Below are positions 6,901 to 21,900 of a stretch of 64,000 nucleotides of DNA, one piece after another. A program made the position numbers and the translations under genes. The DNA is from Hormiphora californensis. Taxonomy: Eukaryota > Animalia > Ctenophora. The first letter of the stretch is position 1. Every line of letters starts with the position of its first letter. The stretch is from assembly GCA_020137815.1 (NCBI GenBank), contig CM035362.1, positions 5,022,001 through 5,086,000 of the forward strand. The letters run 5' to 3'. Below the pieces are notes generated by a model. That model did not search any database. It was not told the origin of the DNA and saw only the letters and a list, made by a program, of their open reading frames with translations.

Positions 6901-9900
6901 AGATAATTCAGGAACCGACCGAATATGAATCAGAAAATACTGGTCCCTGATTGGCTAATAACCAGTCACGTGACCTAAATAACGAGTTCTGATTGGTTGT
7001 TTACTTGTTTCGGTCGGTTCCTGGATATCACCCATAATGAACATTTGTTACAGTGTAAAACTACATTGAAAATCCCGGAGAGAAGGAAACGAAACTGGAA
7101 AGAGAAGATAGTTGCCTTCTATACTGCCCCCGTTGTCAAGTTTACTCTTCATTTTGTGAGTGGCTGTTGTTCTCTTAGTTAAAGTAACAAACTCTCTCTC
7201 TCTCTCTCTCTCTCTCTCTCTCTCTCTCTCTCTCTCTCTCTCTCTCTCTCTCACACACTCTCTCTCTCTCACAATTGACACTCATTGTATAATATCATCC
7301 CCAAATCCTCTCAGATGACCTACGTACTGTTTCTAATCGGCTACGCATACCGGTTACTACATTTCGGAGATGATAAAAACTACATACTCCCCAAGTCCAA
7401 GATATCCATTCTCGATATCCTGCTATGTTTGTGGATCATGGGTCAATTACCCATTGAAATTGATCAGGTGACTCTATGATCATGACTAACCTGATCTATA
7501 TGGCGGCGCCATACCCCATTTGATTCTCAAATTGGGCGTGCGACAGTGCGCTCAGATGGGGTCGCGGCGCCAGACAGACTAACAGATCAGGTTTCAGGGT
7601 TAAATAGCTGGATTAAATTCAGGAACCGACCGAATCAGAAAATACTGGTCCCTGATTGGCTAATATCCAGTCACGTGACCTAAATAACGAGTTCTGATTG
7701 GTTGTTTACGGTCGGATTAAATTGCAACTGTATTTCTTTCCGTAGATTAAAAAGCAGAATCCGATAACCCTGAAAGACAAGCTAAAAGTGCACTATGATA
7801 GCACCTTTAATATAATGGACACCTTGGCAATCCTGACTTTCTGGACACAGTTCATCATGAAGGTAATTCATATTTAAATTAATCAAAATAAATTAATGAA
7901 TTAATTAATAGCCATAATTAATACAGCCAAAGCGTGATAGCGACTGGCTATTTGAAATGGCGGCTAATTTGAAACACCCCCACTACAGACCAGCAGGTGC
8001 ACCAGTTTTGGATTTTTAGACATCAGTGGGCTAGTCAAAACTCATACCAAGCCCACTGACGACTAAAAATCCAAATCTGGTGAACCTGCTGGCCTGCAGA
8101 GGGGGTGTTTCAAATTAGCCGCCATTTCAAATAGCCAGTCGCTACCCTACTGCTTTTGTAGACGAGTTGTTGAGGAAATATACTTGGAACAGCCGGGAAG
8201 ATCACATCGATACAATTAATTGATTAATTAATTAATTAATCATTAACCCCCTTTTTTTCAGGCGGTGGCATCCCATTCTTCCATGAATTTGTTACATGGG
8301 TTCACTGTACAGAACACTGCACATGTGATTAACGTGTTTTCTTTCGCTCTACTATCTCTACGGTTTATTCAGGTACGGTACATGATTGGTTGGTAACGCA
8401 ATTACCCCTATATTGCGGGCACGACGGCACGCTAAGACGTGCCTTACTATCTCAATGCCCTATAGAGGGGTAACTTCATTACCAATATGATTGGCAACTA
8501 ATTAAATAATTTAAAATAATAACTATGTATTATGTTCAATAAACCCTGTTTCTATATTCTCTTCTTATTATGACTCATATTGTATCAGGTGGTCGAGGTT
8601 AACATAAATATGGGACCTAAAGTGATCATGATTAAGAAGATGATGATCGATTTAATTACTTTTCCTCTTCCTCATCTTCATCTTTCTGCTTACGTATGGT
8701 GTCTGTTCACAGGTTTGGAAATTTCTTTTAATATCTTATCCTACTTAATTTTAATTTATTTTATTTTGTCCAAGCTTTAAATCTAAACCAACTGTTTCTC
8801 CTAGGCTCTCAAGGATCCGACTTCATTGAATTTTGACGGTGGTCGGCTCTGTCTAGCTACCGGCATTGAACATCTTTGGAGAAATAGGACTTGAAGATTT
8901 GGAGGCAGATGTTTTAGTAGGTATAATATATGCTTTCTCTTTCTCTTTCTCTTTCTCTTTCTCTTTCTTTTTCTCTTTCTCTTTCTCTTTCTCTTTCTCT
9001 TTCTCTTTCTCTTTCTCTTTCTCTTTCTCTTTCTCTTTCTCTTTCCCCCTCTCTCTCTCTCTCTCTCTCTCTCTCTCTCTCTCTCTCTCTCTCTCTCTCT
9101 CTCTATAAAACGTGCTTTTTTTAAGAAGCGCTATAGACGTACTCCAGGCTACAGTGCGATATTTGAGGCGCAGTTGGGCGTTTTATAAACGCATTTTTGT
9201 CGCATATAAAAGGAAGCAGTATAGACGCATTATAGACGCAGTATAGCCGCATGTGTGCCAAATCGATAAAGACGTAATATATAGACGCAAAATAAGAAGA
9301 ATAGCATTGTAGGATTTTATTATGCCTATAAGTTGTACCTGAAAACTTATAACACGAGACCGAAGGTCGAGTGTTATAAGTACAACAATAATGATCCGAG
9401 ACCACAGGTCGAGGCAGATTCTTGTACTTTAGTGCACGAGCCTGCGAGTGCCACTAAGTGTAACTACCTCACGAGCCTGCGAGTGATGTAGTTTTACTTT
9501 TTGACCGAGCCTGCGAGGTCTAAAAGTGTAAGAATCTGGGACATTATTGTTGACGTCAGGTACAACGAAAATAGGCATAATAAAATTGCATTGTAAAATT
9601 TTTAAAACAAGAGTGAGAGACAGTTTAGGGCGTAGCAATAGAACGAATTCATGATAAGGTAGCAGGCAGAGATAAGATAACGCCTGAGATCTATAGGTAA
9701 AGAGAGTGAGAGATTAGCGAGAGTGAGAGAGAGATAAAGAATGTGTGGGTCTGGGTCCTGGGAGTTCGTGACTGTTATCTTGATCTCGGTGTTGCAACGG
9801 CTTGAGAGTGTGACATAAAGAAAGAGAGAGAGGGAGTTCGTACACGCTTATCTTTCGAACGGTTTTTAGTGTGACAGAAACAGTAAGGAGTAAAGACTTC

Positions 9901-18900: not shown

Positions 18901-21900
18901 CGTCTATGTAGCGTTTATGGTGCTGCTATAGTCAGTCTATAATGCGTCTATAGTGCGTCTATGAAGTGATTTTGGGGTGGGTAGTGCGCCTATAATGCGG
19001 CTATACTGCGTCGCGTCTATAAAAATGCGTATATATTGCTGTTATAATGCGCCTATACTGCGTCTATACTGCTGCTTACGAAAGTCCGTCTATATTGCGT
19101 GTGTCTATACTGCGTCTATAATGCGTCTTTAGTACGTGGGTACTGCGTCTATAGTGCGATGCCCGCAAATCGCAAATTGCCCTCTTTCTCTCTCTCTCTC
19201 TCTCTCTCTCTCTCTCTCTCTCTCTCTCTCTCTCTCTCTCTCTCTCTCTCTCTCTCTCTCTCTCTCTCTCTCTCTCTCTCTCTCCCCTCCCTCTCCAGGA
19301 CACTGTGTGGTACCAAAGGATATGACCGTCAATGAAACATGTGTGTCCACATATGAGGACAACTTCCTTGGCTTTGTCAACGAGCACAGCGTGGTACTGA
19401 TTCATTACTACATTTTACAGGTAAAATGTATCACTATAACAATATCTTTTAATCCATAAAATCACCTGGTCAGGTTATTATGTCGGCTCTTTTTTACCAG
19501 GATACTAATGTAACGATTCAAATTTGAAATCGGAATACTAAAATTGTTTCATCCTATAGGTTCTGATGTTTGCATATTTGGTGTTTGTTAACGTTCTGTT
19601 GCTCAACCTTCTGATCGCTATATTTTCCAACACGTAAGAAAATCAAACATCAAACATTCACTCAACAACAAAATTATTTCTGATGAGAGTAACTATCACT
19701 TGTCTTGATCGACCCAGTTTCTCTCGCCCCGCCCGGGAAACTATTTTAAAATGTAAATGACGGTTCGAACATAACAAGCTATCACTGTTAATGGGCGGGA
19801 AATTATTTCCGCGGAAGTGGGAAACTCCATGCGAGAAACTATAATTCCTTTTCTGTTCCAGTTACGAATCCATCAACTCTGAAGCAAGCAAGATATGGAA
19901 AGTGCAATGGTGCTTCGTAGTGAAAGAATTCGAACAACGACAACCCCTACCAAGCCCTCTTTCTCTTGTTTACTACATCTTTCAAAGTGCAAGGTTAGGT
20001 GCATTTTGACTTGTATACCGTTATGGCACGTCCATTTCTATCGTTATCTCTCTCTTCATTCCTCTATTTCTCCGATTACCTACAACTATGGCTCATGCAA
20101 CTATGGCTCATAAAATCTATGAGCCATAGATGCATGCAACTATGGCTCATAGATTTTATGAGCCATAGATGCATACAACTATGGCTCATAGAAATGTGAT
20201 CTGATTATGTTCTATGAGCCAAAGCTAGTGAGTGACACGTGAATGACACGTGAGTGACACGTGAGTGACACGTGAGTGACACGTGAGTGACACGTGAGTG
20301 ACATGTGAGAGATCGAATAATATAATATTGAATGAGCACAATATGAATAATGAGCACAAATGTAAACGATTTACATAATAATAAATCTAATATTACATAA
20401 TTAAAATTACACTATCAGTTCATCTTGAATATAATGGTAAAAGGAGTCCTTCTTTGGACAGTTCATAGAGCTTTTCATGTGAATCAGCAGCTCCTTAACA
20501 CGATGTTTATTCAAATCTATGATCGGGTAGGTATTAAACAGCCGCCTTGCATTATCACTATCAGGATCCACAGTAAAAAACTCTCCAACAGGTCTGATTT
20601 TCGAGAAATTAGTATAAGTAGGATGTTCCCAGAAATTGCCTGACTTTCTGATCTTTCACACTCTTCCAAAACCTCCCGGTACTCGTTGAACGTTGTAGTG
20701 TTGTTAGTGACGTCGATAGTACAATTATAGCTAGTGAATCCACTAACAAATTCTAATGAGCGGGATGGATATGTCAGTGACAACTGACAGTGTCACATAT
20801 CCACCCCCCTCACTGACACGATTCTGGGATGCGTCATTAGCAGAGTGAAACGATACGAGATACGAAACTTATGATTCGGGGGAGCTCATTAGTAGTGTGA
20901 GACGATACGGTATGTGGAACATGATTCGGGGAAGCTTATTAGGAGTGTTAGACACTAAAATGAAACACGATTCGGAGAATGTTTTATCGCTCTTTCTATC
21001 TATCTCTATCTATATCTATATCTATATCTATATCTATCTCTTTTTGTCAATTATCTTGGACTTGAGAACCAGATGAGGTGCCTACCATTATATATCTCTC
21101 ACTCTCTCCGCACGTGCGGTTGCACCGCGCGAGATAACTCTTTCTCAAGGGGGAGAAAAGAGAGAGACGCACATTAACGTTATACATTAAAGTTGAGGTT
21201 GTAGGCAATTGCACGTACGTCCATACTCAAATAATTGCTCTACCGGGATTAATGATTACAGGAGAACGGCTTGAAATATCTCTTGGAGTCTCCGGATGGT
21301 TACTCAGGGGACCTAGAGCTAACTTTTGACACCCATGGTTTTACCCCAAGTTGAAAAAATTTAGTCAGGTTTTTGTTATGATCAACAACATTTCAACTGC
21401 CGATTACACCAAGATGAAAACAGTCTGTGAAAAAGTAACACCTGTTTAGAGGTCGTGCCGAGGCTCCAAACTGATGTGACAAAAACTGGAACAATTGGGA
21501 GAGGTCGATGTAGTTATCGACTCTACTATCATATCGTCTAACACTCCTAATAAGCTTCCCCGAATCATGTTCCACATACCGTATAGTCTCACACTGCTAA
21601 TGAGCTCCCCCGAATCATAAGTTTCGTATCTCGTATCGTTTCACCCTGCTAATGGCGCATCCCAGAATCGTGTCAGTAAGGGGGGTGGATATGTGACACT
21701 GTCACATATCCATCCCACTCATTAGAATTTGTTAGTGGATTCACTAGCTATAATTGTACTATCGACGTCACTAACAACACTACAACGTTCAACGAGTACC
21801 GGGAGGTTTTGGAAGAGTGTGAAAGATCAGAAAGTCAGGCAATTTCTGGGAACATCCTACTTATACTAATTTCTCGAAAATCAGACCTGTTGGAGAGTTT

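What the first reader, a model, noticed from the sequence alone, without database searches (positions are those of the whole stretch)
9103..19181. Intact intronless GPCR enclosed by the two arms of a foldback transposon inside a TRPM intron
Seen: the arms at 9103-9300 and 18536-19181 correspond to the two distinguishable arms of the intact Mutator-like foldback at 59717-61984, whose spacer is only a few hundred bp. Here the spacer is ~9 kb and holds a complete 1049-aa receptor gene. Inference: the receptor arrived as transposon cargo (Pack-MULE-like) or was inserted after the foldback, so it is a recently mobilised nested gene. A second paralog fragment is also nested antisense in another gene's intron at 56.2-57.5 kb, suggesting TE-driven dispersal of this receptor family.
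Basis: partly seen in the sequence, partly recalled or inferred. Interest (0 to 1): 0.75.

Follow-up and report, generated by a model that had tools for sequence, protein, structure and literature searches.

The report
Receptor gene inside split foldback transposon
In a comb-jelly genome, a complete receptor gene sits inside an ion-channel intron between what are likely the two arms of one jumping DNA element, which likely took the gene in after landing there rather than carrying it in; similar cases are known from flies and vertebrates.

Summary
The anatomy is real. An unbroken 1049-aa LDLa/7TM receptor ORF (13034-16183, minus strand) lies in a 10,378-nt intron of a TRPM channel gene. The flanking repeats match opposite arms of the foldback at 59717-61984 (14 of 17 and 13 of 17 diagnostic columns). 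Removing them and all between leaves a 296-nt CT-rich GT-AG intron, so one insertion is the simplest history. Corrections: the left 'arm' is a 200-nt internal piece without its terminus, no target-site duplication can be shown, and the reference element carries its own 716-nt insertion. Mobilisation as cargo is unproven. The receptor's 5' flank shows single-copy depth in one run, and other foldbacks here also hold later insertions. The second paralog is distant (34-51%), broken and has no arms, so transposon-driven dispersal of the family is not supported. Best reading (0.5): a single-copy Pack-TIR, made when a DNA copy from a young Pleurobrachia-type receptor clade filled a break in a resident foldback. 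Cargo transposition: 0.28. Both kinds are described in animals (PMC8277862), and TE-flanked nested genes are common in a related ctenophore (PMC8527503). The scan's notes hold no earlier report of this.

The parts
8805..8920 (+). TRPM host exon before the intron (pore-helix/filter region); carries one extra base at 8856, likely an assembly error
   Evidence: base left out in runs X5, X7, X11
8921..19298 (+). Host intron, GT..AG, 10,378 nt; 296 nt with only 9 non-C/T letters if 9100-19181 is removed
8936..9099 (.). Left CT tract, (CTCTTT)n then (CT)n; holds 15 copies of the candidate TSD 9-mer
9100..9304 (+). Internal 200-nt piece of a B-type foldback arm; outer ~360 nt lost, joined to the CT tract at a short shared TCTATA
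9305..11761 (.). High-copy repeats: a MITE-like element related (71-83%) to 1165-1558 and 51966-52359, then nested MITE-like elements and likely LINE pieces
   Evidence: depth and joints 10421 to 11537/11543; element classes inferred
11845..13010 (-). Likely 5'-truncated LINE piece with a short-tandem tail, starting about 20 nt behind the receptor stop
   Evidence: ORF pieces (no Pfam hit); X4 contig at depth 346 fits 12120-13000 and runs on; class from my own knowledge
13034..16183 (-). Unbroken 1049-aa receptor ORF: hydrophobic N-terminus, Cys-rich ectodomain with LDLa modules, LGR/RXFP1-like 7TM, no LRR
16193..16204 (-). Pyrimidine run plus AG 9 nt before the ATG: likely (trans-)splice acceptor, shared with paralogs
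   Evidence: paralog contigs aligned at 16204 in all four runs; function inferred
16205..18535 (.). 5' flank: single-copy stretches (16303-16564, 16836-17187) mixed with repeats
18536..19181 (-). A-type foldback arm with intact outer terminus, cut on its inner side; about 5% diverged from the reference
   Evidence: loose ends at 18536 in 12 X5 contigs continue as the ordinary spacer
19182..19298 (.). Right CT tract and acceptor; first 9 nt are the candidate TSD
19299..19393 (+). TRPM host exon after the intron, followed by a likely S6 exon 19560-19633 and TRP-box exon 19862-19997
56240..57492 (+). Distant, 5'-truncated paralog piece split by ~470 nt, antisense in intron 54076-58019 of another gene; no foldback arms
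59717..61984 (.). Reference foldback: ~670-nt arms with 11-nt subrepeats, 9-nt TSD, outer arms 366 of 367 identical, nested 716-nt element at 61045-61760

Best explanation
An intact receptor ORF lies antisense in a TRPM intron between an A-type and a B-type foldback arm, and it likely got there when a Mutator-like foldback first inserted into the intron's CT tract and a DNA copy of the receptor later filled a break in the element's centre. Steps: (1) foldback insertion into a short CT-rich intron (inferred); (2) break in the hairpin-forming centre, repaired by copying a receptor gene with its own splice acceptor and flanks from another locus, with loss of the centre (inferred; gap-filling model of PMC8277862); (3) further repeats landed on both sides and a deletion removed the left terminus (pieces shown, order inferred); (4) the cassette cannot now transpose with this pair of ends and shows no amplification (terminus loss shown; single copy from depth in one run). 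The retained acceptor would let the gene be expressed by trans-splicing from any antisense transcription (untested).
For: A/B pairing at 14 of 17 and 13 of 17 columns. Residual intron 296 nt, GT..AG, 9 non-C/T letters. Both inner ends cut and the reference centre missing. Unique 5' flank contigs in X4 at depth 42.5 and 40.8 with no differences, against 35-46 for one haplotype and 89.8 for two; N-terminal coding contigs at 89.8 and 105.5, i.e. about two haploid copies and no sign of extra near-identical cassettes. Foldbacks here take in later insertions: the reference itself, the element at 50285-52359, and inverted arms at 42083-42259/47859-48039 (81%) around an 1184-aa RT ORF; six hand-picked long-arm pairs cover 17-27% of the window outside this intron. 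Acceptor kept, no leader motif, no poly(A): a DNA copy, not a retrocopy. In 100 animal genomes only 4 Pack-TIRs (1.4%) were multicopy and most single-copy ones fit gap-filling. In organism B a single-copy contig runs 263 letters into this intron, past the place where the left arm starts in the window.
Against: No donor near by: the only paralog in the window is 34-51% identical, whereas 56.9% of published Pack-TIRs lie within 15 kb of the parent. The cargo (9.2 kb now) is far above the published median of 224 nt. The family is young and abundant (outer arms of the reference 366 of 367 identical; arm depth about 720-880 times single-copy, a rough figure), so one transposition of a ready cassette is quite possible and would also leave a single copy. 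No haplotype with foldback but without receptor was seen. No listed contig bridges arm and cargo (32 of about 19,800 pieces shown). The in-window precedents are self-mobile elements, not host genes.
Confidence: 0.5

Rival explanations
1. Pack-MULE cargo: the foldback captured the receptor elsewhere, next to a receptor cluster, and the whole unit was transposed into the CT tract; the left terminus was lost afterwards (as for Ssk-FB4 in Drosophila).
For: Same A/B pairing and CT-only residual intron; intact right terminus abutting the tract with a 9-mer that also occurs on the left; no local donor; active, abundant family; P. bachei gene models P0001, P0003 and P0010 fuse neighbouring copies, which suggests clusters to capture from; precedent.
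Against: Left terminus absent; TSD untestable; unique flank at single-copy depth, so no further transposition; paralogs share the coding region but not the listed flank stretches; large cargo.
Confidence: 0.28
2. Independent arms: the receptor segment was in the intron first; two copies of this abundant foldback inserted on either side in the same orientation and each lost its inner arm, which also gives B on the left and A on the right.
For: Roughly 0.6-0.75 arms per 64 kb by a crude depth calibration; palindromes often lose an arm (my own knowledge); the left piece is only a fragment; no character is shared by the two pieces alone against the reference except two letters inside an ambiguous gap.
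Against: Needs two insertions and several deletions that leave nothing but CT tract between each arm and its exon; the one clean target site seen for this family is not a microsatellite.
Confidence: 0.14
3. Assembly artefact: a receptor-bearing segment from elsewhere was joined into the intron through the high-copy arms or the CT tracts.
For: Two extra bases in the two exons just left of the junction are absent from other runs, so the consensus is noisy here; no listed contig bridges a junction.
Against: Needs two false joins; the 3.1-kb ORF is free of frameshifts; A/B pairing would be a coincidence.
Confidence: 0.08

Closest known systems
Single-copy Pack-TIRs of animals made by gap-filling (Tan et al. 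2021, PMC8277862; passages and sections 6 and 9 read)
   Same: TIR-element halves on both sides of copied host DNA, centre of the element lost, single copy, often in introns or antisense to hosts
   Different: Cargo here is about 9 kb with a whole 1049-aa ORF (published median 224 nt); no parent identified; the word ctenophore does not occur in that paper's main text
Ssk-FB4 Pack-MULE of Drosophila melanogaster (PMC8277862, section 9)
   Same: Non-autonomous foldback with ~700-nt TIRs and 9-10-nt TSDs enclosing a nearly complete protein-coding gene
   Different: Ssk-FB4 has both termini, several loci with distinct TSDs and a known parent; here one terminus is lost, no TSD can be shown and the flank is single-copy
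Nested intronic genes of Hormiphora californensis (Schultz et al. 2021, PMC8527503; sections 37 and 38 read)
   Same: 2357 nested genes, 1109 flanked by a TE on at least one side and 176 on both; trans-spliced leaders common
   Different: The sections read do not say whether the flanking TEs are two arms of one element and give no mechanism; the supplementary lists were not seen
LGR type C / GRL101-like receptors (PMC4079206, passages; RXFP1 7tmw best PDB hit)
   Same: LDLa modules and an LGR-like rhodopsin-family 7TM
   Different: No leucine-rich repeats found; belongs to a ctenophore LDLa-7TM family with at least 462 database relatives

Membership tests
Mutator-like foldback (reference element 59717-61984) | Long TIRs with internal tandem subrepeats | tested here: met
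   ~670-nt arms, 11-nt subrepeats
Mutator-like foldback (reference element 59717-61984) | 9-10-nt target-site duplication | tested here: met
   exact 9-nt duplication; criterion as
Mutator-like foldback (reference element 59717-61984) | Autonomous partner with a MULE transposase | not testable with these tools
   no genome held; no terminus match in metagenome contigs
Pack-MULE / Pack-TIR | Both halves of one TIR element flank the cargo in inverted orientation | tested here: met
   14 of 17 and 13 of 17 diagnostic columns; left half is a fragment
Pack-MULE / Pack-TIR | Both termini present | tested here: not met
   outer ~360 nt of the left arm missing
Pack-MULE / Pack-TIR | TSD on both sides of the whole unit | tested here: inconclusive
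   candidate 9-mer occurs 15 times in the left microsatellite
Pack-MULE / Pack-TIR | Identifiable parental copy of the cargo | tested here: inconclusive
   many close paralogs exist, none in the window; genome not held
Transposed (multicopy) Pack-MULE | Same cassette at several loci with different TSDs | tested here: not met
   unique 5' flank at one-haplotype depth in X4; indirect, one run
Nested intronic gene | Gene wholly inside one intron of a host gene | tested here: met
   ORF 13034-16183 inside intron 8921-19298
Nested intronic gene | Transcript observed | not testable with these tools
   no RNA data could be laid on the stretch
Retrogene | Spliced leader or poly(A) tract at the ends, acceptor removed | tested here: not met
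   acceptor kept, no leader motif near the 5' end, no poly(A); 3' end disturbed by a likely LINE
GRL101 / type C LGR | LDLa modules | tested here: met
   PF00057 above cut-off
GRL101 / type C LGR | Leucine-rich repeats | tested here: not met
   no LRR family at E 0.01 in the window protein or in 12 of 12 homologues scanned
GRL101 / type C LGR | LGR-like 7TM | tested here: met
   best PDB hits RXFP1 (E 1e-17), FSHR, LHCGR, TSHR

The most novel reading that the evidence does not exclude
Mutator-like foldbacks carry whole, trans-splice-ready receptor genes into introns in comb jellies and are a main engine behind both the LDLa-receptor expansion and the thousands of nested genes; pairing of the two arms in the host pre-mRNA (predicted duplex -294 kcal/mol against -66 for shuffles) loops out the cargo and lets the channel gene tolerate it.
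Probability: 0.1. Interest if true: 0.72.

Novelty: new member of a known kind. Interest (0 to 1): 0.4.

Why it matters
It gives a datable, single-locus case for a question left open in the ctenophore genome literature: how nested intronic genes arise. The orthologous intron in public Pleurobrachiidae assemblies would settle it. If the cassette proves to have transposed, it would be an unusually large animal Pack-MULE with an intact gene; a search for 'ctenophore' with 'Pack-MULE' gave one unrelated paper, in a library that lacks most subscription journals. If it formed in place, it is one more single-copy Pack-TIR in a genome full of foldbacks.

Tried and rejected
No genome is held, so paralog flanks could not be mapped. 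No RNA holder listed; this says nothing on expression. The empty-site test across both CT tracts was not run, so the question of an empty haplotype stays open; the 263 letters of the organism B contig were not printed. Bins without cover were not used as evidence. Metagenome contigs: no relative of the receptor (15 pattern matches, none confirmed) and no match to the foldback terminus; viral contigs: nothing for a TRPM exon (19 matches, none confirmed). A homologue search with one TRPM exon scored none of 52 candidates. Rfam gave six sub-threshold miRNA-like hairpins, taken as chance hits on palindromic repeats; no tRNA gene. No second inverted pair closer to the receptor. The joint 9124/18821 in X5 is explained by arm similarity. 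Hemizygous insertion was considered from the one-haplotype flank depth and not accepted, as N-terminal coding contigs show two-haplotype depth. A TRPM pseudogene was considered and rejected. Ten listed differences in the ORF (5 silent, 5 replacing) are too few for a selection test. Searches for a paper on this receptor family in ctenophores gave no description in the listings and passages seen; I recall reports of such an expansion but did not retrieve them. The Atlas look-up used a Mnemiopsis homologue and only confirmed the family.
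Full report
Organism and genes. The window encodes an unbroken ORF of 1049 aa on the minus strand at 13034-16183 with LDLa and 7tm_1 domains and no LRR. Its 7TM part is closest to RXFP1 and the glycoprotein-hormone receptors among solved structures. A search with residues 560-1049 gave 462 relatives among 7980 candidates scored; the first 13 of 120 listed rows carry one source label, and the three I looked up are Pleurobrachia bachei; Mnemiopsis proteins are 40-46% identical. 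The window is therefore likely from a close relative of P. bachei. In a tree of 39 rows (the window protein, hits from the first 30 and 8 chosen others; rows aligning under 250 aa dropped) the protein sits in a well-supported shallow clade with 8 of those source-labelled proteins (98/94). Three such gene models fuse neighbouring copies, which suggests tandem clusters, or misassembly, in that species.

Host. Plus-strand exons from 901 to at least 25927 encode a TRPM channel: 3 of 12 exon translations hit 'SLOG in TRPM' or 'TRPM2-like' and the TRP-box exon resembles TRPM8/TRPM2 weakly; a NUDT9-like tail is my reading of exon 25180-25294 from memory, with no Pfam hit. The receptor lies in intron 8921-19298 (10,378 nt; other gaps in my exon list 74-1185 nt). 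Two single extra bases (8658, 8856) break the frame in the two exons left of this intron. Runs X5, X7 and X11 lack both, and X4 lacks the first, so they are likely assembly errors and the host is likely intact.

Arms. The reference element 59717-61984 has a 9-nt TSD, ~670-nt arms and a nested 716-nt element. Its outer arms are 366 of 367 identical, its inner 190 nt only 91%, which makes arms A and B distinguishable. 18536-19181 follows A at 14 of 17 diagnostic columns and 9100-9304 follows B at 13 of 17. The left piece lacks the outer ~360 nt and joins the CT tract at a short shared motif; both pieces are cut on the inner side, and the reference centre is not found between them. The 9-mer right of 19181 occurs 15 times in the left tract, so no TSD can be shown. 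Removing 9100-19181 leaves 296 nt, GT..AG, with 9 non-C/T letters: what a single insertion into one microsatellite would leave.

Public runs. Four DNA runs held as contigs were laid on 9104-19181 and on 7290-8936; the tool warns that summed depth is no copy number, so I use orders of magnitude and single long contigs only. In X4 two haplotypes give 89.8 and one gives 35-46. Arm bins reach 65,000-79,000, receptor bins 545-2737: a very abundant element and a subfamily with many close paralogs. Two contigs in the 5' flank (16303-16564, 16836-17187) match without difference at 42.5 and 40.8, and two N-terminal coding contigs stand at 89.8 and 105.5. The cassette is thus not amplified, and the gene is likely on both haplotypes. 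X5 holds 16830-17188 unchanged at depth 40, below its haplotype depth of about 115; I cannot explain that. In organism B (X11) a 422-nt contig at depth 88.4 covers the exon and runs 263 letters beyond 8925. A contig at single-copy depth would be expected to stop at a high-copy arm or a long CT run, so B likely lacks the left arm at this place; whether B has the receptor in this intron is unknown, as the letters were not shown. Only 32 of about 19,800 pieces were listed, and none bridges an arm and the cargo.

How the copy was made. A pyrimidine run and AG lie 9 nt before the ATG, paralog contigs align beyond it in all four runs, the leader end motif given in PMC8527503 (section 37) is absent near the 5' end, and there is no poly(A). 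This points to a DNA copy. The space between the arms is otherwise mostly repeats.

Base rate. The window is rich in foldbacks: six hand-picked long-arm pairs cover 27% of the window outside this intron, 17% without their later cargo. Several hold later insertions, among them arms at 42083-42259 and 47859-48039 around an 1184-aa RT ORF (one element by inference, TSD not checked). A gene copy landing in a foldback is therefore not rare by chance, and hairpin centres are likely break-prone (my own knowledge).

Second paralog. The piece at 56.2-57.5 kb is nested antisense in another gene but is 34-51% identical, truncated, split, and has no arms within 48000-59700. It shows that the family is scattered, not that this foldback scattered it.

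Mechanism. Shown: arrangement, arm types, missing terminus, single-copy flank in one run. Inferred: order of events. I give 0.5 to capture in place by gap-filling, 0.28 to transposition as cargo, 0.14 to two independent elements that each lost the inner arm, 0.08 to a misjoin. Against my reading: no local donor, a cargo much larger than published, and an active family.

Literature. PMC8277862 (passages, sections 6 and 9) reports 370 Pack-TIRs in 100 animal genomes, nearly all single-copy and fitting gap-filling, and one foldback-borne near-complete gene that did transpose (Ssk-FB4). PMC8527503 (passages, sections 37 and 38) reports 2357 nested genes in Hormiphora, 176 with TEs on both sides; its supplements were not seen and may list such cases. 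PMC4079206 (passages) defines GRL101 as an LGR with several LDLa domains; this protein lacks LRRs and is not filed there. PMC11797021 and PMC12716839 (passages) added nothing. Other papers were seen as listings only. Earlier notes of this scan: none on this arrangement.

Verdict. A real and well-resolved example of a known kind: a likely single-copy Pack-TIR with an unusually large, intact cargo, forming a nested gene. The dispersal claim is not supported by what could be tested. Interest 0.4.

Noticed in passing
window 8658 and 8856: Single extra bases that frameshift two TRPM exons; absent from other runs, likely assembly errors.
   Followed up: yes
window 42083-48039: Inverted arms (81% over 188 nt) enclose a non-LTR retroelement with an unbroken 1184-aa RT ORF (42830-46384, minus), a 71-nt tandem array and CT tracts.
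   Followed up: partly
window 61045-61760: 716-nt element with short TIRs and a 9-nt duplication inside arm B of the reference foldback; similar ends occur near 8385, 22570 and 62057.
   Followed up: partly
window 20078-22403, 27861-29171, 54197-55602, 2351-3496: Further long-arm foldbacks with 94-99% identical arms; 27861-29171 sits inside a copy of the abundant MITE.
   Followed up: partly
window, 21 copies: A ~125-nt MITE-like repeat is present 21 times by a 28-nt motif count, mostly in introns, with by far the highest depth in all four runs.
   Followed up: partly
window 30143-30823: GIY-YIG endonuclease ORF piece, likely the end of a Penelope-like element (Pfam hit; class from my own knowledge).
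   Followed up: no
window 29788-30076: Short ORF with a hydrophobic segment and a PPSY motif whose middle repeats sequence near 29220-29270; may be a second nested gene in a later intron of the channel gene.
   Followed up: no
window 37400-41900: Minus-strand exons that read like UDP-glucose 4-epimerase (recalled resemblance; ORF text only in part).
   Followed up: no
window 50500-51060: Garbled CT-rich stretch that looks like noisy long-read consensus inside a copy of the element also found at 1165-2063.
   Followed up: no
window 8513-8931, run X5: A second individual carries an intron/exon haplotype with 22 differences and 15 gap letters over about 410 nt, very divergent for one species.
   Followed up: no
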